Part shown: in pieces, positions 37,250-63,903 of the stretch
How positions within the stretch are numbered: position 1 is the first letter of the stretch
Layout: each line of letters begins with the position of its first letter
Assembly (NCBI GenBank): GCA_001787405.1
Contig: MFWV01000009.1
Coordinates: 26,278-90,277 of the forward strand
Origin: Candidatus Pacebacteria bacterium RIFOXYA1_FULL_38_18
Lineage (GTDB): Bacteria > Patescibacteriota > Microgenomatia > UBA1400 > PJMF01
Direction: 5' to 3'
Length of the DNA stretch: 64,000 nt
Program-made: the position numbers and the translations under genes
The notes under the pieces: generated by a model
The model's input: the letters and a program-made list of their open reading frames with translations, nothing else
Databases searched by the model: none
What the model was told of the DNA's origin: nothing

Positions 37250-38013
37250 TAAACATGGCAAATAACTCTCCTTTTCTATCAGTGGTAGTGCCCTCTTTCA
37301 ATGAACAAAAAAATATTGCCAGAGGAGTATTGTCAGAAATGCTGGATTATTTAAAAACTCAAGATTATTCTTGGGAAATAATCCTCACCGATGACGGTAG
37401 CACCGATGGTACTGTTGAAAAACTAACGGCCTTTGCTAAGAACCATCCTCACATTAAAGTTTTGAAAAATCTGCACGCCGGAAAAGGACCCACTGTGGCA
37501 GCAGGAATGTTGGCTGCTAACGGTCAATGGCGTTTATTTACTGATTTTGATCAATCAACTCCCCTTTCAGAAGTAGAAAAATTATTTGCTTTTACTGATA
37601 CTCATCAAGTTATTTTTGGTTCTAGAGAAATAAAAGGAGCCAAAAGAGACAAGGAACCATTTTATCGTCACTTGATGGGGAGAGGCTTTAATTTATTGGT
37701 CCGGATTATGGCAGTACCCGGAGTCAGCGATACTCAATGTGGTTTTAAGTTATTTTCAGCACCCACAGCAGAAACACTATTCAAAAAATTATATGTTTAT
37801 GGTCATCAAACAGAACGGCCAGATGCCTTCACTGGTGCTTTTGATGTGGAATTATTATTTTTGGCCAGAAAACTGGGATTTGCGAGTATTGAGGTGCCCA
37901 TTCTTTGGCGACATCATGCCACTGATCGAGTCAGTCCTATTAAAGATTCCTTGCGCATGTTGCGTGATATTTTATTGATCAGATGGGCCAAAATAACGGG
38001 TAAATATCGATAA
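37246..38013 (+). CDS. GT2 polyprenol-phosphate sugar synthase (DPM1/ArnC-like)
   Basis: FLSVVVPSFNEQKNI...LTDDGSTDGT...TDFDQS. Confidence 0.8.
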   Translation: MINMANNSPFLSVVVPSFNEQKNIARGVLSEMLDYLKTQDYSWEIILTDDGSTDGTVEKLTAFAKNHPHIKVLKNLHAGKGPTVAAGMLAANGQWRLFTDFDQSTPLSEVEKLFAFTDTHQVIFGSREIKGAKRDKEPFYRHLMGRGFNLLVRIMAVPGVSDTQCGFKLFSAPTAETLFKKLYVYGHQTERPDAFTGAFDVELLFLARKLGFASIEVPILWRHHATDRVSPIKDSLRMLRDILLIRWAKITGKYR

Positions 38014-42309: not shown

Positions 42310-42383
42310 TCCCGGGTGGTGAAATGGCATCACTACAGGCTCTGAACTTGTCATTCTAGGTTCGAATCCTAGCCCGGGATCCA
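42310..42383 (+). tRNA. tRNA-Gln (anticodon CTG)
   Basis: Manual cloverleaf: 7-bp acceptor stem (TCCCGGG/CCCGGGA with a U1:A72 pair as in bacterial tRNA-Gln), D-stem GTGA/TCAC, anticodon stem ACAGG/CTTGT with loop CTCTGAA, T-arm CTAGG-TTCGAAT-CCTAG, and an encoded CCA. Confidence 0.85.
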
Positions 42384-42404
42384 CCCAAAACATATCCTAT
42401 AATA

Positions 42405-42433
42405 TTGACATTTGATATATTTTGTGCTAGTAT
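42405..42433 (+). promoter_or_regulatory. Near-consensus sigma70 promoter TTGACA-N17-TAGTAT
   Basis: Read directly, 20 nt downstream of tRNA-Gln. It heads about 400 nt of non-coding, structured sequence before the ATG at 42827. Confidence 0.45.
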
Positions 42434-42826
42434 ATGTAGCATCCTACAAGAGTAATCTTCTAGGATTTTTTATAAGAAAAATATGACTAAAGAGGAGCGA
42501 GGCCTACTTTAAGATAACTTTAAAAACTCCTTTTTTGTTGGTAGAAACCTGGTTGGAAATAAAATCTTTTCTCCTGAGTTTTTCAGGATAGTTTCTAACT
42601 AGATTTCTGCTATTAAGCTGTAGGTTGTTGATAGCAGGTTTTGAGTAAAACAAGGTTAGAAACAGCTTCTAACAAATTGTTTTTCAAGAAAAAAAACCTA
42701 CATCTGCACTTTAATAATTTGCGAAAAACAAAACCCTCCGACCTGAATGGGTAGCTTTTTGGACATTAATCGATAGTGTTCAGCAAGCTATCCATTCGGG
42801 ATAGTAAACCTACAAAGGAGAGAAAA

Positions 42827-43333
42827 ATGTTCAGCAAGAAACCCAAATGGGTAAGAGCCCTTGCATGGTGTATAACCCTGCAAGTAATTTTTGCATGGGC
42901 AATCATCACTCGGGAAATGATCCGAGACCACACCTATTCCGGAAAGGAAGAGGTTGTGGTTAAAATTTACAGAGGTTACAACATCGATATTTATGTTGAA
43001 ACCCCTGTTGCCATTGAGGCAACAAGCCTCGATTTTTTCCTGCTCGAGAGGGGCGGGGAATATCTATATGGCATACCTTATTCTCCTCTAGAATTTGGGG
43101 AGCATAAGTATTTTTCTCTCACTGGAGAAATCTCTAGTGGAGAATGGGAGGTTTCAGGGGATGAAGAAATAAGCCTGAGACTTGTCAGCGAAGAAGAAGA
43201 AAATGAAAAAGGGATAGAGGTAAGAATCTATCCCCGGGAACCAGTAATCTTCTCCATTATCTTCTTCAATGCCCTGTTTTCTCTCGCAGTTTGGGCATTA
43301 ATGATGGCACCTATCTGGATATTTTTTAATTAA
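42827..43333 (+). CDS. Hypothetical two-TM membrane protein with acidic central domain; compositionally atypical
   Basis: The start is chosen at the ATG preceded by AAAGGAGAGAAAA, a strong Shine-Dalgarno; the ORF track start is GTG 42776. It has N- and C-terminal TMs. Local GC content and codon usage (CTC, CGG, GGG, AGG) differ from neighbouring genes. Confidence 0.55.
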   Translation: MFSKKPKWVRALAWCITLQVIFAWAIITREMIRDHTYSGKEEVVVKIYRGYNIDIYVETPVAIEATSLDFFLLERGGEYLYGIPYSPLEFGEHKYFSLTGEISSGEWEVSGDEEISLRLVSEEEENEKGIEVRIYPREPVIFSIIFFNALFSLAVWALMMAPIWIFFN

Positions 43334-43340
43334 GTGCAGA

Positions 43341-43456
43341 AAAAGCCTGAAGTAGAGAAAAAAGATAGAAAAGGAGTGTGTTGCGATAAGCAATACACAC
43401 GTGTGATTACAACACACTTTCCTTTCTATCTTTATCTCGTAAATCTTCAGGCTTTT
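43341..43456. repeat. 116-nt imperfect palindrome (giant hairpin) with perfect CACACGTGTG centre; putative bidirectional terminator or MITE-like element
   Basis: Outer arms AAAAGCCTGAAG / CTTCAGGCTTTT are perfect. Inner arms GATAGAAAAGGAGTGTGTTG / CAACACACTTTCCTTTCTATC are near-perfect. The flanks are T-rich on both strands. Confidence 0.6.
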
Positions 43457-43550
43457 CTTTATTTAAAACCTAAATTGAAAAAATTATTTATAGGCAAAAA
43501 ACCAGTTTTACCATTACACCCTTGTCAGAAAGATATGATAAAGTACTCTC

Positions 43551-44420
43551 ATGCCAGATAAATTCAATGCTACCTGGGTTTCTTATAGCTCTATTAGTGA
43601 TTGGCAAAAATGTCCCAGAGCTTACTTTTTGAAAAACATTTACCGCAATCCTAATACCGGCAATAGAGTTCAGCTGGCCGCCCCTTCCCTCTCTCTGGGT
43701 CAAGCAGTACATGAAGTGATTGAAAGTTTGTCGATTCTACCCGTTGATAAACGTTTTACGGAATCATTGTTAAAAAAATATGAACAAATCTGGAAAAAGG
43801 TTAGTGGAAAAATCGGCGGATTTCTTGATGAGCAAACCGAACTGAACTTTAAACAACGTGGCGAAGTGATGTTGCAAAAAGTGATGAAAAATCCAGGACC
43901 AGTAGGTGAATTAGCTATCAAAATTAAAGAAAACTTACCTCAATACTGGCTTTCTGAAGAAGATGAGATTATTTTATGTGGCAAAGTCGATTGGCTAAAA
44001 TATTCTCCAGAAACAGATAAAGTTGAGATTTTAGATTTCAAAACTAGTACCAAAAAAGAGCGTCCTGACTCACTGCAGTTACCTATTTATTTATTACTCG
44101 TCACCAATACCCAATCAAGAACAGTAACCGGAATGAGTTATTGGTACTTAGGGTTTTCGGATCAACCAGAATCAGTAGATCTTCCAGATTTGAAAGAATC
44201 GCACAACACCATTCTAAAAATTGCAAAAGAAATCAAGCTCGCCCGCAAATTAGAGCGTTTCCGCTGTCCCAATGGAGAGGCAGGTTGTCCTATTTGCAAA
44301 CCCTTTGAAAAAATCGTAACCCAAGAAGCTGAGTTTGTCGGCACCAATCCAATTTATAAACAAGATATTTTTATTCTGCCCGATCTTCAAGAAAAGCAAG
44401 CAGACAGTTATATTCTTTAA
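43551..44420 (+). CDS. Cas4-like PD-(D/E)xK nuclease with 4Fe-4S cluster cysteines (RecB/AddB nuclease-domain family)
   Basis: N-terminal Cys in DWQKCPRAYFLK; motif II/III VDWLKY...VEILDFKTS (DxK-T); QLPIYLLL (QxxxY); C-terminal RCPNGEAGCPICKPF (C-x6-C-x2-C). No CRISPR array or other cas genes are present in the window. Confidence 0.7.
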   Translation: MPDKFNATWVSYSSISDWQKCPRAYFLKNIYRNPNTGNRVQLAAPSLSLGQAVHEVIESLSILPVDKRFTESLLKKYEQIWKKVSGKIGGFLDEQTELNFKQRGEVMLQKVMKNPGPVGELAIKIKENLPQYWLSEEDEIILCGKVDWLKYSPETDKVEILDFKTSTKKERPDSLQLPIYLLLVTNTQSRTVTGMSYWYLGFSDQPESVDLPDLKESHNTILKIAKEIKLARKLERFRCPNGEAGCPICKPFEKIVTQEAEFVGTNPIYKQDIFILPDLQEKQADSYIL

Positions 44421-57650: not shown

Positions 57651-58619
57651 TTATTGAATTAAACCACTACGGAAAAAGATCAAGATAAAAGTTACCGCGC
57701 CCAAAACTAATAAATGCCCCAAATTTTTATTGAAAGCCATCACTATTTGACGATTACGAACAATAAAACTGTCATAAATCAGAGTAGCCGTAATCAAAAT
57801 AATCACTGCCAAAAAGAAAGCTTTTGTCAGGTGGAGAGGGGTGAGCAATACTGGATTATCTAAAGGATTTGGTAATAGTACCGAACCAGCCAATACCTGA
57901 GTTTCCTGATCAGTTGCTGATTTTACTGATGCTACTTCTTGTCTGGCAGAATCAGTCAATAACTGTTGTTGGCCAGCTTTATTATTGGCTACTGTAGTGG
58001 GACTCCCAAACATTTGCACCACCAAAGTAGTTTCAAATCCTTGTAAATTACCATTGATTACCGCAATGCCAATCTCTTCAAATTTATTATTTACAATGTT
58101 TGCACGATGAGTAGGTGATTTCATCCAAGCCTCCATCATTTCAGTCGTATCCATAAAATCACGAGCCAAATTTTCCCCAGCAGCTTTATAAACATAACCA
58201 GATTCTTTAATGAAGCTCCAAGGCTCCATACCGTCTGGTGAAGTATGAGACCAATATTGATCAGTAAACATATCCTGACCTTTAGCCAAAGCCGCTTGGG
58301 ATAATTTTTCGTTAATTTTTAGTTCTGATAGTCCTTGATTAACTCGTTGCTGATTGGTCTGAATTAGGACATCTTCGGCCGTAATATTGGAAGCATAACC
58401 CAAAATAGAACTACTTAAACTTGGGAAAAAACGCAATGCTCGCACTATGGAAAATGAAGCCAGCACAATCAAACAAAAATACAAAATAGATTCTGGGTGC
58501 AAAAGTTTAGAGCGGTAATAATTGCGCTTTGAAGGTCTGAAAAGATGAGTAAGAGTGCTACCTAGCTTGGCGGGCTGGTGGCGCTTTCTTCTTCGGGGCA
58601 TGGTCTCTATTATGCACAT
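57651..58619 (-). CDS. CAP (SCP/PR-1/YkwD-like) domain protein, membrane-anchored at both ends
   Basis: YWSHTSPDGMEPWSFIKESGYVYKAAGENLARDF...EAWMKSPTHRANIVNNKFEEIGIAV is the CAP domain signature. It has N-terminal and C-terminal TM helices. Confidence 0.7.
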   Translation of the reverse strand: MCIIETMPRRRKRHQPAKLGSTLTHLFRPSKRNYYRSKLLHPESILYFCLIVLASFSIVRALRFFPSLSSSILGYASNITAEDVLIQTNQQRVNQGLSELKINEKLSQAALAKGQDMFTDQYWSHTSPDGMEPWSFIKESGYVYKAAGENLARDFMDTTEMMEAWMKSPTHRANIVNNKFEEIGIAVINGNLQGFETTLVVQMFGSPTTVANNKAGQQQLLTDSARQEVASVKSATDQETQVLAGSVLLPNPLDNPVLLTPLHLTKAFFLAVIILITATLIYDSFIVRNRQIVMAFNKNLGHLLVLGAVTFILIFFRSGLIQ

Positions 58620-58671
58620 TCTTGCCCATCTCTACAAGAGAAATTGCAAGAATGCTCGGATTCAAGAAGAT

Positions 58672-60260: not shown

Positions 60261-60332
60261 GCCCCATCGTCTAGCGGTTAGGACATCGGGTTCTCATCCC
60301 GGCAACTGGGGTTCGATTCCCCATGGGGTCAC
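60261..60332 (+). tRNA. tRNA-Glu (anticodon CTC)
   Basis: Manual cloverleaf: acceptor GGCCCCA/TGGGGTC (one G-U), D-arm GTCT-AGCGGTTA-GGAC, anticodon stem TCGGG/CCCGG with loop TTCTCAT, T-arm TGGGG-TTCGATT-CCCCA, discriminator A. CCA is not encoded. Confidence 0.8.
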
Positions 60333-60341
60333 AAAACAGAA

Positions 60342-60371
60342 AAGATTGCTTCAGCAATCTTTTTTTGTTTT
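60342..60371 (+). terminator. Rho-independent terminator downstream of tRNA-Glu
   Basis: AAAGATTGC-TTCA-GCAATCTTT followed by TTTTTGTTTT. Confidence 0.7.
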
Positions 60372-60466
60372 ATAAGCTCACGATTGGAAAAGATCACTAG
60401 TTCGCCCTACGAAGTACAAATAATTCTTCCTTCAGCCTGAGTAATTCGCAGGAACAAAGCGACGAG

Positions 60467-62139: not shown

Positions 62140-63903
62140 TTATTTTCTCTCTTCAGCTTCCTCAATCCCTTTGAGACCATAAACTAAAAACCAAGCAATT
62201 CCTGCTTGATCGGCTGGATCTTGCCAAGAAAATCTACCCTGAAATTCTACGGTTAGGTTGGTGTTCAAAACATTTTCCATAGCTCCTACTGCAGGTACTA
62301 TTTCAGACCAATATGACCTTAGACGTTGCTCGATTTCCTTGATAAAAATCAAGGACCTGGAAACAATTATTTCATTCAAAATAAGTCGGGGCACCTGGCC
62401 CTGTTCAACTAACTCTATCAAAATTTCTTGAATGATTGCTTGGCTGATTTTTTCAGTGCGATCTGTTTTTTGAAATTTTGTTTTATATCTGGAATTAATT
62501 TCTTGATAAAGAGCTCTTTCATAAGCTGAGAGATTTTTTTCGCTAGCTAGTTTGGCTACTAAATCAGTTACTCTTTGAAAGTCCAAATGATCTGTCCCCA
62601 AACCAAAATTAATACGACTGATTCCATCTGGAAAATTCTTTTTCAAAAATAAGGCAATACTGATGATTTTTTCTTTGGGGTATGCAGTTTCTTCTCCAGA
62701 ATATTGATTGATTTCCAGATTTTCCAGAGTTCTCAGATGAGCTACTTCTGGCAAAATGCTTCCCCTAACTACTGGTTCTTTTTCTCTAGACATTTGCAAA
62801 CCAATGACAAAATGTTCTTGGGCTAATTCTTGACTCATTTTACCGGGACGATTAAAGCCTATTAAGACTTCTTCCAAAGTCACTGATTCATGCAGACCTT
62901 TTAGCCAATCAGGGAAAAGACCATACTTGGAAGTAGGTGCCTGATGTTGGTCAAAAACAGTTTTATCTCCAGTAAAGAAGGCATCAATCAATACAGCTGA
63001 TTCTTGTTCGGCACGAGGATCAAATAAAATCCAGGGATTGTTGCCCAATCTGGTTTGATCGCCGTGATAAGTAAATGCCGAACGAATCGTAACTTGATAA
63101 CCTTCTCTCAAGCCAGCCAGAATTTTTTCTTTAATTTTTGCTTGATTGGTTCTCTCCACCTCTCCTTCTTTTGAAATATTCAATTTCATGGGGCGGTAAA
63201 GAGTGATTATTTCCTTTGGAAAAACTTCGTTGATGAGAGCTTGAGATTGAGCTTTGATTGAACTGAATGTTCTTTTGATCAAAGGTCTTTTCTCTTGCAA
63301 TTCCAGATAGTTCTTTCCATATGTTATTTCTCCTGTTGATCCAACCAATCCCTCAGTCCAAAAACTAGTTCCCAGTTTTTTTCTCTGCTCCAATCTTTCG
63401 GCTGCTACTGGCTCCAATCGATGTTTGATGATTTTTAATTTGCCCTGATAAACCTGACCATTGTCACTATTTACCGATAACCAATCGCCTTTTTTGATTC
63501 TGGTATTTTTAAAACAAAGGGTGGCTTCTTTTATTCTCAAATCTTCATTACCGCAACCCATCACTCCCACACCACCCTGGGCGTTGATGATGCTAGCTAC
63601 ATGACTTTGAGCTGTACCCCGAAAAGAAACTATGGCAAACCGCCGATTAAACTCTCCCATTAGTCTCAACAGTTCTACTTCATTTTCAATTAATTCTTGA
63701 ACAAGGATAACTGAATCACCATCTTCCAAGAGAGTAGCGGCATCAGTAAAATTGGTTGCCAGTTTGCCCACCAATACTCCCCCTCCTATTCCATGACCCT
63801 GAGCCAATAATCTATCCTCTTGAATCGCTCGTCGTTCTTCTTTTTGAGTAAAAGTGCTTTTTAGAGCATCAATGTCTTGCGGTTTGATTAATTTTCTCAA
63901 CAA
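62140..63903 (-). CDS. Protein with N-terminal PEP-utilizing-enzyme mobile (phosphohistidine swivel) domain and a long uncharacterized C-terminal region
   Basis: FAIVSFRGTAQSHVASIINAQGGVGVMGCG aligns to the GGRTSHAAIIAREL-GIP-CVVGC phospho-His motif of PPDK/PEP synthase/EI. No ATP-grasp is recognised and the domain order is atypical. Confidence 0.55.
   Translation of the reverse strand: MLRKLIKPQDIDALKSTFTQKEERRAIQEDRLLAQGHGIGGGVLVGKLATNFTDAATLLEDGDSVILVQELIENEVELLRLMGEFNRRFAIVSFRGTAQSHVASIINAQGGVGVMGCGNEDLRIKEATLCFKNTRIKKGDWLSVNSDNGQVYQGKLKIIKHRLEPVAAERLEQRKKLGTSFWTEGLVGSTGEITYGKNYLELQEKRPLIKRTFSSIKAQSQALINEVFPKEIITLYRPMKLNISKEGEVERTNQAKIKEKILAGLREGYQVTIRSAFTYHGDQTRLGNNPWILFDPRAEQESAVLIDAFFTGDKTVFDQHQAPTSKYGLFPDWLKGLHESVTLEEVLIGFNRPGKMSQELAQEHFVIGLQMSREKEPVVRGSILPEVAHLRTLENLEINQYSGEETAYPKEKIISIALFLKKNFPDGISRINFGLGTDHLDFQRVTDLVAKLASEKNLSAYERALYQEINSRYKTKFQKTDRTEKISQAIIQEILIELVEQGQVPRLILNEIIVSRSLIFIKEIEQRLRSYWSEIVPAVGAMENVLNTNLTVEFQGRFSWQDPADQAGIAWFLVYGLKGIEEAEERK

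What the first reader, a model, noticed from the sequence alone, without database searches (positions are those of the whole stretch)
42310..43460. Compositionally atypical mini-island immediately downstream of tRNA-Gln
Directly after tRNA-Gln(CTG) there is a near-consensus promoter (TTGACA-N17-TAGTAT). About 400 nt of non-coding sequence follow, with several hairpins (ATCCTA-N14-TAGGAT plus a T-run at 42441-42472; GTTTCTAAC/GTTAGAAAC; GAATGGGTAGC/GCTATCCATTC). Then comes a gene with a strong SD encoding a two-TM acidic protein whose GC content and codon choice (CTC, CGG, GGG, AGG) are clearly higher and different from the surrounding AT-rich genes. A 116-nt palindrome closes the segment. tRNA-adjacent position, atypical composition and palindromic boundary together suggest a horizontally acquired cassette of unknown function, possibly a small mobile or defence-related module, with an unannotated structured RNA or leader.
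Basis: seen in the sequence. Interest (0 to 1): 0.6.

Follow-up and report, generated by a model that had tools for sequence, protein, structure and literature searches.

The report
Self-locking mRNA cassette beside tRNA-Gln
Next to a tRNA gene in a Candidatus Pacebacteria genome sits a strain-specific, self-contained gene for a small membrane protein whose messenger RNA carries a conserved, previously undescribed set of folding elements that appear to keep it closed, a rare glimpse of RNA-level gene control in these uncultivated bacteria.

Summary
The compositional claim holds only in part. The ORF's GC (0.42) is within the window's range. Its codon usage is atypical (p≈0.003), but the rare, GC-ending codons sit in hairpin stems.

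The window is Candidatus Pacebacteria RIFOXYB1_FULL_39_46. In relatives the slot between tRNA-Gln and a PD-(D/E)XK nuclease gene holds different genes, so the segment is a variable islet. I found no integrase, att repeat, phage or plasmid relative, or defence-model hit.

The 168-aa product (two TM helices flanking a β-sandwich, pLDDT 92) belongs to a rare unannotated family of 16 clusters.

Eight units in seven loci share one mRNA frame:
- a 5' box;
- a CU-rich anti-SD;
- a 26-bp leader hairpin (92% of cells paired, 14/26 pairs with compensatory changes, G·U-rich, absent from Rfam);
- the SD;
- a 3' box complementary to the 5' box, with a compensatory indel and a swap;
- a compound terminator.

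Only in this genome is the coding sequence also packed with hairpins (z=-7.1 against synonymous shuffles; other genes -3.0 to +1.6).

Best reading: an insulated accessory envelope-protein gene with a hok/aapA-like locked mRNA.

The parts
42310..42383 (+). tRNA-Gln(CTG). Conserved backbone gene and left border of the variable slot.
   Evidence: ARAGORN and Rfam tRNA, 57 bits. The same tRNA follows the response-regulator gene in L007, L017 and L019. Homology with L007 stops at the tRNA 3' end.
42405..42433 (+). Sigma-70-like promoter candidate P1: TTGACA-17-TAGTAT with a TGn extension.
   Evidence: It is the only >=10/12 match with TG in the 64 kb. Function is not shown.
42441..42472 (+). AU-rich hairpin plus U-run. 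It is either the tRNA-Gln terminator or a 5'-terminal hairpin of the P1 transcript.
   Evidence: (I19). It has too few G-C pairs to be called by the terminator scan.
42473..42702 (+). Species-specific upstream leader, rich in hairpins. It contains a weaker promoter-like site, P2 (42538-42565). It also has four mutually complementary segments at 42549-42673.
   Evidence: GC-corrected stability reaches z+ = -3.1, stronger on the + strand. It has no counterpart in the other units.
42703..42711 (+). 5' box, TCTGCACTT (family consensus TCTTGCACTT). It is complementary to the 3' box.
   Evidence: I4; duplex -13.5 kcal/mol, 0/500 shuffles. In L015a, L015b, L016 and L023 the box starts 4-7 nt after a -10-like box, so there it is probably the mRNA 5' end.
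42734..42739 (+). CU-rich anti-SD (CCCUCC). CUCC at 42736-42739 pairs with GGAG at 42817-42820.
   Evidence: MFE folds. An anti-SD:SD helix closes the leader hairpin in 7 of 7 units folded.
42742..42800 (+). Conserved leader hairpin of 26 pairs (covariance-model hit 42733-42810).
   Evidence: 92.1% of cells are paired and 14/26 pairs show changes on both sides (0/500 shuffles). Slid controls give 35-46%. The + strand scores 81 bits and the - strand 41 bits. Independent hits: L023 at 48.3 bits and L020/L021 at 26.9 bits.
42814..42822 (+). Shine-Dalgarno sequence AAAGGAGAG, 4 nt before the ATG.
   Evidence: Only about 9 of 55 genes in the window have an SD-like motif.
42827..43333 (+). CDS of a 168-aa acidic protein: TM helix, roughly 105-aa beta-sandwich, TM helix. 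The CDS itself is hyper-structured.
   Evidence: pLDDT 92.1. MFE -189 versus -139.2±7.0 for synonymous shuffles, z=-7.1; about 11 tiled local stem-loop domains; z=-8.2.
43332..43340 (+). 3' box, AAGTGCAGA. It overlaps the stop codon and is complementary to the 5' box.
   Evidence: Relative to the family consensus there is a compensatory 1-nt deletion in both boxes. L023 carries an A-U to U-A swap.
43338..43466 (+). Compound hairpin terminator. The outer stem GCCTGAAG/CTTCAGGC (43345-52/43445-52) is followed by TTTTCTTTATTT and encloses a branched inner domain. An A-tract on the 5' side makes it bidirectional in form.
   Evidence: z=-10; z=-6.4 on both strands. Sequence is shared with the L015a and L015b terminators. 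Long compound terminators follow the gene in L015b, L016, L020, L022 and L023.
43512..43550 (+). Right border of the variable slot. This is the conserved promoter region of the PD-(D/E)XK nuclease gene, whose ATG is at 43551.
   Evidence: The BLASTN match to L003 starts at 43512. A -10-like box 7 nt before the ATG suggests a leaderless mRNA.

Best explanation
The segment is a strain-specific, fully insulated, single-gene expression unit. It occupies a variable slot between tRNA-Gln and a conserved PD-(D/E)XK nuclease gene in a Candidatus Pacebacteria genome.

The product is a small acidic envelope protein. Its N-terminus is predicted to be cytoplasmic, followed by TM1, an outward-facing beta-sandwich of about 105 aa, and TM2. 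It belongs to a rare, unannotated family. Its two named members are Patescibacteria.

The mRNA is built to close on itself:
1. A 5' box pairs with a 3' box placed directly before the terminator.
2. A conserved 26-bp leader hairpin brings a CU-rich anti-SD on its 5' side against the SD on its 3' side, masking the ribosome-binding site.
3. A long compound hairpin with a U tract ends the transcript and shields the 3' end.

In this genome the coding region is additionally packed with hairpins encoded through synonymous sites. That explains the odd codon choice.

I infer that the full-length transcript is stable but poorly translated. I also infer that expression needs an opening event: cleavage of the long hairpin by a double-strand-specific RNase, 3' trimming as in hok/aapA mRNAs, or binding of a factor to the sequence-conserved base of the hairpin.

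Shown in silico: the variable slot, the protein family and fold, the conserved hairpin with covariation, the box complementarity with two compensatory events, SD pairing in all units, and the hyper-structure.

Inferred: transcription start sites, translational gating, the activating step, and the protein's role at the cell surface.
For: Variable slot:
- Relatives keep GT-HK-RR-tRNA-Gln on one side and PDDEXK-(MFS)-PrmC-DsbA-RecJ-CCA on the other.
- Between them they carry a Trx-like gene only (L017), five other genes (L007/L019), or other small ORFs (L003, L008, L009).
- Homology breaks at the tRNA 3' end and resumes at 43512.

Protein:
- The word-index search of 5.8 billion clusters finds only itself.
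- HMMER against 1.84 billion representatives finds 15 homologues at 25-36% identity with the same architecture.
- The AF2 model has pLDDT 92.1.
- No Pfam, PADLOC or PDB-sequence match.

mRNA frame:
- The leader hairpin is present upstream of the gene in the window, L014, L015b, L016, L022, L020/21 and L023. It also precedes an unrelated 109-aa ORF (L015a).
- RNAalifold gives 26 pairs. The pair count gives 92.1% paired, 14/26 pairs changed on both sides, 0/500 shuffles and 35-46% for slid controls.
- Many conserved G·U pairs, and roughly twofold higher + strand CM scores, point to RNA on the sense strand.
- 5'/3' box duplexes are -12 to -15.4 kcal/mol in 5 of 7 units. The window shows a compensatory indel and L023 an A-U to U-A swap.
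- The SD is paired to an adjacent CU-rich tract in 7/7 MFE folds, z between -3.0 and -7.6.

Hyper-structure:
- Synonymous-shuffle z=-7.1 versus -3.0 to +1.6 for the 54 other genes.
- 18 of the 22 GC-corrected windows with z+<-3 in the 64 kb lie at 42521-43361.

The design matches type I toxin mRNAs (5'-3' long-distance interaction, CU-rich anti-SDs, inert full-length form) as described in PMC6733600.
Against: - There are no expression data. The start site in the window is unknown, and the window copy lacks the -10 box that precedes the 5' box in the other units.
- The anti-SD:SD helix in the window is only 4 bp, -6.6 kcal/mol.
- The 5'/3' pairing is weak in L016 and L020.
- It rests on only two compensatory events among conserved sequences.
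- Only eight units were available, several from short contigs.
- All copies of the window's gene are 100% identical, so the CDS hairpins cannot be tested by covariation.
- Homologous genes are not hyper-structured, so that feature could have a mutational rather than a selective origin.
- Two family members (L010, L013) lack the frame.
- The protein's function is not indicated by any database or fold match.
Confidence: 0.55

Rival explanations
1. Type I toxin-antitoxin-like or abortive-infection module. The membrane protein is harmful when made. Its mRNA is kept inert by the 5'-3' lock and SD masking. An unseen antisense RNA or a processing step controls killing.
For: - The mRNA design parallels hok and aapA.
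- The product is a membrane protein.
- Distribution is sporadic and falls in variable regions. One contig carries two tandem units beside Type ISP R-M and GmrSD genes.
- The window's mRNA is extremely structured.
Against: - The protein has 168 aa and a well-folded ectodomain, far larger than type I toxins.
- The same frame carries a soluble-looking 109-aa ORF (L015a) and, in L022, an added lipoprotein gene.
- No promoter-like site is predicted on the minus strand within 42384-43550.
- No PADLOC hit.
Confidence: 0.17
2. Mobile or integrative cassette. The unit was inserted next to the tRNA by site-specific or cassette-type recombination. The conserved flanking boxes and palindromes are DNA recombination sites rather than RNA elements.
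For: - The position is tRNA-adjacent and the cassette is absent from relatives.
- The same non-coding frame flanks different ORFs in different genomic contexts.
- The 5' and 3' boxes form an inverted repeat bracketing the ORF.
- A 116-nt palindrome follows the ORF, within the attC size range.
Against: - There is no integrase or recombinase nearby.
- There is no repeat of the tRNA 3' end.
- No attC core sites (RYYYAAC/GTTRRRY) are present in the palindrome (sequence).
- The promoter lies outside the left box and the terminator outside the right box, which fits transcript ends better than element ends.
- Conserved G·U pairs and the strand asymmetry of CM scores favour RNA.
- There are no phage, plasmid or viral relatives.
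Confidence: 0.1
3. An ordinary lineage-specific gene with a strong terminator. The hairpins and codon bias are by-products of local mutation (template switching at quasi-palindromes) or of chance, and have no regulatory role.
For: - The homologues' CDSs are not hyper-structured.
- Most CDS stems are Watson-Crick and the minus strand also folds well (z=-6.45), as DNA-level inverted repeats would.
- No covariation test of the CDS hairpins is possible.
Against: - The leader hairpin, the anti-SD/SD arrangement and the boxes are conserved with compensatory changes across proteins only about 30% identical.
- The leader is 81% identical between the window and L014, against 30% protein identity.
- The stability is biased to the + strand at 42500-42760 and 43000-43140.
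Confidence: 0.1
4. The locus is mainly a large structured non-coding RNA of about 1 kb, and the ORF is incidental.
For: The whole stretch from 42500 to 43460 is the most structured part of the 64 kb. It lies next to a tRNA gene, as some large ornate RNAs do (own knowledge).
Against: - The ORF has 15 homologues with conserved motifs and architecture, and a pLDDT 92 model.
- No Rfam large-RNA family matches.
- Homologous loci lack the CDS structure.
Confidence: 0.03

Closest known systems
hok/sok and aapA/IsoA type I toxin mRNAs (PMC6733600; Gultyaev et al. 1997, cited there)
   Same: [quoted passage not shown]
- CU-rich anti-SD elements that trap the SD.
- A very stable full-length transcript.
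- Conservation of the fold by coupled covariation.
- A membrane-protein product.
- Sporadic, sometimes multi-copy chromosomal distribution.
   Different: - The product is 168 aa with a folded ectodomain, not a peptide of 30-60 aa.
- The 3' box pairs with the extreme 5' box rather than with the SD.
- No antisense antitoxin was found.
- The same frame also carries non-membrane ORFs.
- There is no evidence of toxicity.
5'UTR-3'UTR pairing in ordinary bacterial mRNAs, e.g. icaR of Staphylococcus aureus (own knowledge, not checked here)
   Same: A 3' UTR segment base-pairs with the 5' UTR of the same mRNA to limit translation and to create a double-stranded RNase substrate.
   Different: In icaR the 3' UTR motif pairs directly with the SD. 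Here the SD is masked locally, and the end-to-end pairing involves a separate conserved box.
RNase III-processed leader hairpins, e.g. phage lambda N, T7 early mRNAs, adhE (own knowledge)
   Same: A perfect or near-perfect leader hairpin of 20 bp or more lies upstream of the ribosome-binding site. Cutting it would separate an inhibitory upstream segment (here the anti-SD and 5' box) from the SD.
   Different: No cleavage data exist. The basal half of the stem is conserved in sequence, which suggests specific recognition beyond generic dsRNA.
tRNA-adjacent genomic islets and phage 'morons', i.e. autonomous promoter-ORF-terminator units (own knowledge)
   Same: A single accessory gene with its own promoter-like site and terminator. 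Codon usage is atypical. It is absent from relatives and sits next to a tRNA gene in a slot whose content varies between lineages.
   Different: There is no integrase, att repeat, prophage context or phage relative. The atypical codons are tied to RNA stems.
Integron gene cassettes (ORF + attC)
   Same: A short ORF followed by an imperfect palindrome of about 116 nt. The same kind of frame is found around different ORFs.
   Different: There is no IntI, no R''/R' core sites and no cassette array at this locus. The unit has its own promoter-like site and SD, and a U tract after the palindrome.

Membership tests
tRNA-adjacent integrative island / integrative mobile element | Integrase or recombinase gene within or beside the segment | tested here: not met
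   ORF list and Pfam of the neighbours show a response regulator, a PD-(D/E)XK nuclease and an MFS transporter.
tRNA-adjacent integrative island / integrative mobile element | Direct repeat of the tRNA 3' end at the distal border (attL/attR) | tested here: not met
   No direct repeat of 11 nt or more links the tRNA to 43300-43620.
tRNA-adjacent integrative island / integrative mobile element | Absent from the same slot in close relatives | tested here: met
   L003, L007/L019, L008, L009 and L017 carry other genes between tRNA-Gln and PDDEXK.
tRNA-adjacent integrative island / integrative mobile element | Composition foreign to the host genome | tested here: inconclusive
   GC z=1.3, GC3 p=0.034 and codon usage p=0.0026. 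The GC3 excess sits in stems.
tRNA-adjacent integrative island / integrative mobile element | Relatives on phages, plasmids or viral contigs | tested here: not met
   all returned no match.
Anti-phage defence system (PADLOC models) | Protein matches a defence-system HMM | tested here: not met
   None for the window protein. One member of 16 gave a single weak hit, E=0.017.
Anti-phage defence system (PADLOC models) | Recurrent location in defence islands | tested here: inconclusive
   Only L015 lies beside Type ISP R-M and GmrSD. The other contexts are glycosyltransferases, acetate kinase/peptidase, or unknown genes.
Integron gene cassette | attC with R'' (RYYYAAC) and R' (GTTRRRY) core sites, and an IntI nearby | tested here: not met
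   Neither core site is present at the ends of 43339-43466 (sequence). No integrase was found.
Type I toxin-antitoxin (hok/aapA-like) | Small hydrophobic toxin, below about 60 aa | tested here: not met
   The product has 168 aa with a beta-sandwich ectodomain. The frame also carries a 109-aa soluble-looking ORF.
Type I toxin-antitoxin (hok/aapA-like) | 5'-3' long-distance interaction in the toxin mRNA, kept by covariation | tested here: met
   Tested in silico only. Duplexes of -12 to -15.4 kcal/mol occur in 5 of 7 units, with a compensatory indel (window) and a swap (L023).
Type I toxin-antitoxin (hok/aapA-like) | SD sequestered by CU-rich anti-SD | tested here: met
   Tested in silico only. 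The SD is paired in 7/7 MFE folds of the 5' UTRs.
Type I toxin-antitoxin (hok/aapA-like) | Antisense RNA antitoxin overlapping the toxin mRNA | tested here: inconclusive
   No promoter-like site on the minus strand within 42384-43550. A consensus scan cannot exclude one.
Type I toxin-antitoxin (hok/aapA-like) | Toxicity of the protein | not testable with these tools
   Needs expression in cells.
Rho-independent terminator | G+C-rich stem directly followed by a U tract | tested here: met
   GCCUGAAG/CUUCAGGC followed by UUUUCUUUAUUU. The fold gives -57.8 kcal/mol, z=-10. It is unusual in enclosing a branched inner domain of about 90 nt.
Any described RNA family (Rfam 15) | Covariance-model score at or above the gathering threshold | tested here: not met
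   Only the tRNAs pass in the window. At E<=10 the region 42384-43600 gives only sub-threshold matches, mostly to eukaryotic RNA families plus two bacterial ones (S10-Clostridia leader, MicC), none near its gathering score. Nothing is found in L014, L022 or L023 at E<=1.

The most novel reading that the evidence does not exclude
The conserved frame may define a new class of self-locking mRNA cassettes in Patescibacteria. The frame consists of the 5' box, the anti-SD, the sequence-conserved 26-bp leader hairpin, the 3' box and the compound terminator. On this reading it is a portable post-transcriptional 'safe' that can hold different small genes. Those genes would stay silent until a specific RNase or RNA-binding factor opens the transcript. 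The window's copy, with its hairpin-saturated coding sequence, would be an extreme form. If the cargo proteins are conditionally harmful surface or membrane effectors, for example phage-exclusion or abortive-infection proteins, this would extend the hok/aapA principle to full-size proteins in a phylum where almost no RNA regulation is known.
Probability: 0.3. Interest if true: 0.75.

Novelty: new variant of a known kind. Interest (0 to 1): 0.6.

Why it matters
- Patescibacteria (CPR) are uncultivated and very few of their regulatory RNAs are known. This locus provides a candidate new cis-regulatory RNA family with covariation support and a clear, testable model: SD masking plus 5'-3' end pairing.
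- It also exposes a rare, unannotated envelope-protein family.
- It is a striking case in which synonymous sites of a whole coding sequence appear to be used for RNA structure.
- It warns that 'atypical codon usage' next to a tRNA gene can reflect RNA folding rather than foreign origin.
- The covariance model built here could be used to map the regulon across metagenomes.

Tried and rejected
- Rfam at gathering and at E<=10 found nothing but tRNA.
- Pfam, PADLOC and PDB-sequence profiles of the family gave no consistent hit.
- No phage, plasmid or viral relatives of the protein, the DNA or the motif were found.
- No att-like repeat was found.
- The only inverted repeat across the ORF is the 5'/3' box pair. 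By itself it is near chance level for one sequence (my own estimate). It became meaningful only through conservation in the other units.
- The palindrome and leader-hairpin arms are not dispersed repeats in the window.
- A search for remnants of the relatives' slot genes (Trx-like, 113-119-aa family, MscS-like) found only insignificant matches, best E=0.12 in a 1.35-kb search space.
- The integron attC reading was rejected for lack of core sites and IntI.
- The hairpin-rich state is not a trait of the relatives' slot regions. It is also not a trait of the homologous genes.
- Literature searches found no description of this motif.
Full report
**1. What is in the sequence**

The window is from Candidatus Pacebacteria bacterium RIFOXYB1_FULL_39_46 (GCA_001788645.1). 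Contigs from NCBI and ENA assemblies are 100% identical to it over 20.5 kb.

- tRNA-Gln(CTG) lies at 42310-42383.
- A TTGACA-N17-TAGTAT promoter-like site with a TGn extension lies at 42405-42433. It is the only >=10/12 match with TG in the 64 kb.
- The 168-codon ORF runs from 42827 to 43333. It follows the SD AAAGGAGAG (42814-42822).
- Its product has pI 4.7 and two TM helices.
- The 116-nt palindrome folds at -57.8 kcal/mol, z=-10.
- Rfam finds only the two tRNAs at gathering thresholds. At E<=10 it gives only sub-threshold matches in the region.

**2. Composition**

- The ORF's GC (0.42) is the 89th percentile of same-size windows, with z=1.3 among 55 genes. 'Clearly higher GC' is therefore an overstatement.
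- GC3 (0.423) ranks 54th of 55. Against 5000 length-matched segments of other genes, p=0.034.
- Codon log-likelihood is the worst of the 55 genes, p=0.0026.
- The fraction of rare codons is 0.177, against 0.090±0.018 elsewhere.
- The GC-ending codons are concentrated at base-paired third positions: GC3 is 0.55 when paired and 0.175 when unpaired. The difference of 0.374 compares with 0.117±0.09 (maximum 0.286) for the other genes.
- The codon anomaly is therefore tied to RNA or DNA hairpins and is not clean evidence of a foreign donor.

**3. The slot is variable**

Relatives were found through the downstream PD-(D/E)XK nuclease (57-86% identity) and through the tRNA sequence. All keep the same backbone: glycosyltransferases, a histidine kinase, a response regulator (-) and tRNA-Gln (+) on one side. 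On the other side they keep PD-(D/E)XK, (MFS), PrmC, DsbA-like, RecJ and the CCA enzyme. The stretch in between differs:

- L017 has only a thioredoxin-like gene on the opposite strand.
- L007/L019 have five genes: an MscS-like gene, genes of 210, 136 and 119 aa, and a Trx-like gene.
- L003 and L008 have a 113/114-aa homologue of the 119-aa gene plus other small ORFs.
- L009 has a 295-aa ORF.

None of these resembles ORF168. The window holds no significant remnant of them. Homology with L007 ends at the tRNA 3' end. Homology with L003 resumes at 43512, in the nuclease gene's promoter region.

I found no integrase and no repeat of the tRNA end. There are no dispersed copies of the palindromes. 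There is no phage, plasmid or viral relative. The segment is a single-gene islet in a variable slot, with no sign of how it arrived.

**4. The protein**

- The word-index search of 5.8 billion clusters returns only the protein itself.
- An exhaustive HMMER search of 1.84 billion representatives returns 15 homologues. They are 25-36% identical and 129-183 aa long.
- All share the same layout: an N-terminal TM helix with a conserved Trp, then an ectodomain of about 105 aa, then a C-terminal TM helix. The ectodomain motifs are Y-x-G, S-x-Y-F, G-I-P-x(2)-P-P-L-x-Y, Y-F and G-x-W.
- The AF2 model built with this alignment has pLDDT 92.1 and shows a beta-sandwich between two long helices.
- PDB and BFVD fold searches give only weak, generic beta-sandwich hits. 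The two other fold libraries were unavailable.
- No Pfam, PADLOC or PDB-sequence match was found.
- The two named members are Pacebacteria and Woesebacteria.
- Genomic contexts differ, and none is next to a tRNA:
  - L016 sits between PMT_2 glycosyltransferases.
  - L015 sits beside Type ISP R-M and GmrSD genes.
  - L010 sits beside acetate kinase and an M10 peptidase.
  - The remaining contigs are short.

**5. A conserved mRNA frame (the main new result)**

Folding the flanks of the homologues showed that the leader hairpin of the window (42742-42800) recurs upstream of family members. Their proteins are only about 30% identical. The window and L014 leaders are 81% identical, against 30% protein identity.

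Eight units in seven distinct loci share the following order:

- (a) A 5' box, TCTTGCACTT (window TCTGCACTT, 42703-42711). In L015a, L015b, L016 and L023 it starts 4-7 nt after a -10-like box, so there it is probably the 5' end of the RNA.
- (b) A CU-rich anti-SD.
- (c) The hairpin.
- (d) The SD and start codon.
- (e) One ORF, or two in L022.
- (f) A 3' box, (AA)GTGCAAGA (window AAGTGCAGA, 43332-43340), directly before the terminator.
- (g) A long compound hairpin plus a U tract.

One unit (L015a) carries an unrelated 109-aa ORF. L022 adds a 119-aa lipoprotein gene.

Support for the hairpin:
- RNAalifold predicts 26 pairs.
- On eight sequences, 92.1% of cells are paired and 14 of 26 pairs show changes on both sides. 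No shuffle in 500 reaches this, and slid controls reach 35-46%.
- Several positions keep G·U pairs.
- A covariance model scores the sense strand at 74-85 bits and the antisense strand at 33-41 bits, which argues for an RNA element.
- The model found two sequences it was not built from. L023 scores 48.3 bits (E 5.6e-14), just before its start codon. L020/L021 score 26.9 bits.
- No further copy exists in the window or in the other loci.
- Nothing in Rfam matches these regions.

Support for the 5'/3' box pairing:
- Duplex energies are -13.5 (window, 0/500 shuffles), -15.0, -15.4, -12.6 and -12.0 kcal/mol in five units. They are weak in L016 and L020.
- Relative to the consensus, the window has lost one U in the 5' box and the matching A in the 3' box.
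- L023 has an A-U to U-A swap.

In all seven 5' UTRs that could be folded, the MFE pairs the SD with the CU-rich tract across the base of the hairpin. The z-scores run from -3.0 to -7.6.

**6. Hyper-structure in this genome**

- Sliding 120-nt folds show that 14 of the 20 most stable windows of the 64 kb lie in 42700-43460.
- After correcting for GC, 18 of the 22 windows with z+<-3 lie in 42521-43361. The bias is towards the + strand at 42500-42760 and 43000-43140.
- The CDS alone folds at -189.0 kcal/mol, against -139.2±7.0 for synonymous-codon shuffles (z=-7.1, 0/200). The other 54 genes give z between -3.0 and +1.6.
- Dinucleotide shuffles give z=-8.2 on the + strand and -6.45 on the - strand.
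- The structure is a tiling of about 11 local stem-loop domains whose helices are 4-10 bp long.
- Homologous genes are ordinary, with z from +1.05 to -1.9. L015b is the exception at -3.05.
- The slot regions of relatives are not unusually structured.
- All known copies are identical, so selection on these stems cannot be tested by covariation.

**7. How it most likely works**

The unit is transcriptionally insulated.
- A promoter-like site lies upstream. The window copy lacks the -10 box seen next to the 5' box elsewhere. Transcription therefore probably starts at P1 (about 42440) or P2 (about 42572) and adds a species-specific, hairpin-rich leader.
- A compound terminator separates the unit from the leaderless-looking nuclease gene downstream.

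The transcript is predicted to close on itself, with the 5' box paired to the 3' box and the SD masked across the base of the leader hairpin. This is the logic of hok and aapA toxin mRNAs. In those, a 5'-3' long-distance interaction and CU-rich anti-SDs make the full-length RNA stable and translationally inert until it is processed (PMC6733600).

A 26-bp hairpin lying between the anti-SD and the SD is also a plausible substrate for a double-strand-specific RNase, and a cut there would free the SD. This is an inference from general knowledge and was not tested. The sequence-conserved basal stem suggests specific recognition by a factor.

The product is predicted to sit in the membrane with an acidic beta-sandwich facing outward. 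Its role is unknown, and I favour an accessory surface function.

Confidence is high for the anatomy and conservation, moderate for translational gating, and low for the activating step and the protein's role.

**8. Comparison with known systems and novelty**

- It fails the tests for an integrative island: no integrase and no att repeat.
- It fails for an integron cassette: no IntI and no core sites.
- It has no PADLOC defence-system hit.
- It matches no Rfam family.
- It works like a hok/aapA-type locked mRNA but is not a member of that group. The product is too large, there is no antisense RNA, and the frame carries non-membrane cargo.

I rate it a new variant of a known kind: a new cis-RNA motif and mRNA architecture, attached to a new small protein family in Patescibacteria, plus an unexplained hairpin-saturated coding sequence.

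**9. Limits**

- There are only eight units, some on short contigs.
- E-values from the quickly calibrated model are rough.
- There are no expression data.
- The collection scans of genomes and metagenomes were exhausted before the motif was recognised, so its true distribution is unknown.

Noticed in passing
window, all 55 gene starts; e.g. 43531-43550 before the ATG at 43551: Only about 9 of 55 genes have an SD-like motif. Many starts sit a few bases after a -10-like box, e.g. GATAAAGT 7 nt before the PD-(D/E)XK ATG. This suggests widespread leaderless or SD-independent initiation in this genome. ORF168's strong SD and long leader are exceptions.
   Followed up: partly
window 42549-42673: Four mutually complementary segments occur here: UUGGAAAU, GUUUCUAAC, GUUAGAAAC and UUCUAAC. 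They can pair 1:2/3:4 or 2:3. The 3:4 hairpin is followed by AAAUUGUUUUUC. This is an attenuator-like arrangement of alternative structures in the species-specific part of the leader.
   Followed up: no
window 42489-42540: An SD-like AAAGAGGAG pairs with CUCCUUUUU and is followed by a U-run. Together with P1 and the 42441-42472 hairpin, this could define a separate RNA of about 100 nt. That RNA would carry an anti-SD-like CUCCUUU complementary to the ORF168 SD.
   Followed up: no
L015 7008-8585: Two units with the same 5' box, leader hairpin, 3' box and terminator lie in tandem. The first carries an unrelated 109-aa ORF with no Pfam hit. The pair sits about 2.6 kb from a Type ISP restriction-modification gene and a GmrSD gene.
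   Followed up: partly
L022 885-1244: In this unit the family gene is followed, inside the same 5'/3' frame, by a 119-aa predicted lipoprotein gene (lipobox LVAC).
   Followed up: partly
L003 811-1152, L008 53-397, L019 1590-1949: A conserved 113-119-aa protein of unknown function (31-48% identity, no Pfam) recurs in the same tRNA-Gln/PD-(D/E)XK slot in three relatives. A thioredoxin-like 160-aa gene recurs in L017 and L019. The window has lost or never had both.
   Followed up: partly
L003 413-691: A 92-aa ORF in the relative's slot gives a weak, sub-threshold Pfam hit to Effector-associated domain 8 (EAD8, E=0.003).
   Followed up: no
window 58481-58660, 37301-37420, 62421-62540, 60261-60380: These are the other windows with unusually stable + strand folds (GC-corrected z<-3). 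The one at 60261 is tRNA-Glu with its downstream hairpin at 60333-60370. The others lie inside or at the ends of genes and were not examined.
   Followed up: no
L004, L005 (genome contigs records): Contigs carrying PD-(D/E)XK homologues at 50-57% identity are titled 'uncultured Pseudomonadales' and 'uncultured Gammaproteobacteria'. That is surprising, because every named hit for this protein is a Patescibacteria lineage. The labels may reflect mis-binning.
   Followed up: no
P0016 (L023 1294-1827): JGI names this family member 'heme/copper-type cytochrome/quinol oxidase subunit 2'. No Pfam or fold result here supports that name. It probably reflects the TM-plus-beta-sandwich layout.
   Followed up: partly
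window 43013-43042: An intrinsic-terminator-like motif lies inside the ORF168 coding sequence: AUUGAGGCAACAAGCCUCGAU followed by UUUUUUCC. It could cause premature termination when the mRNA is not being translated.
   Followed up: no
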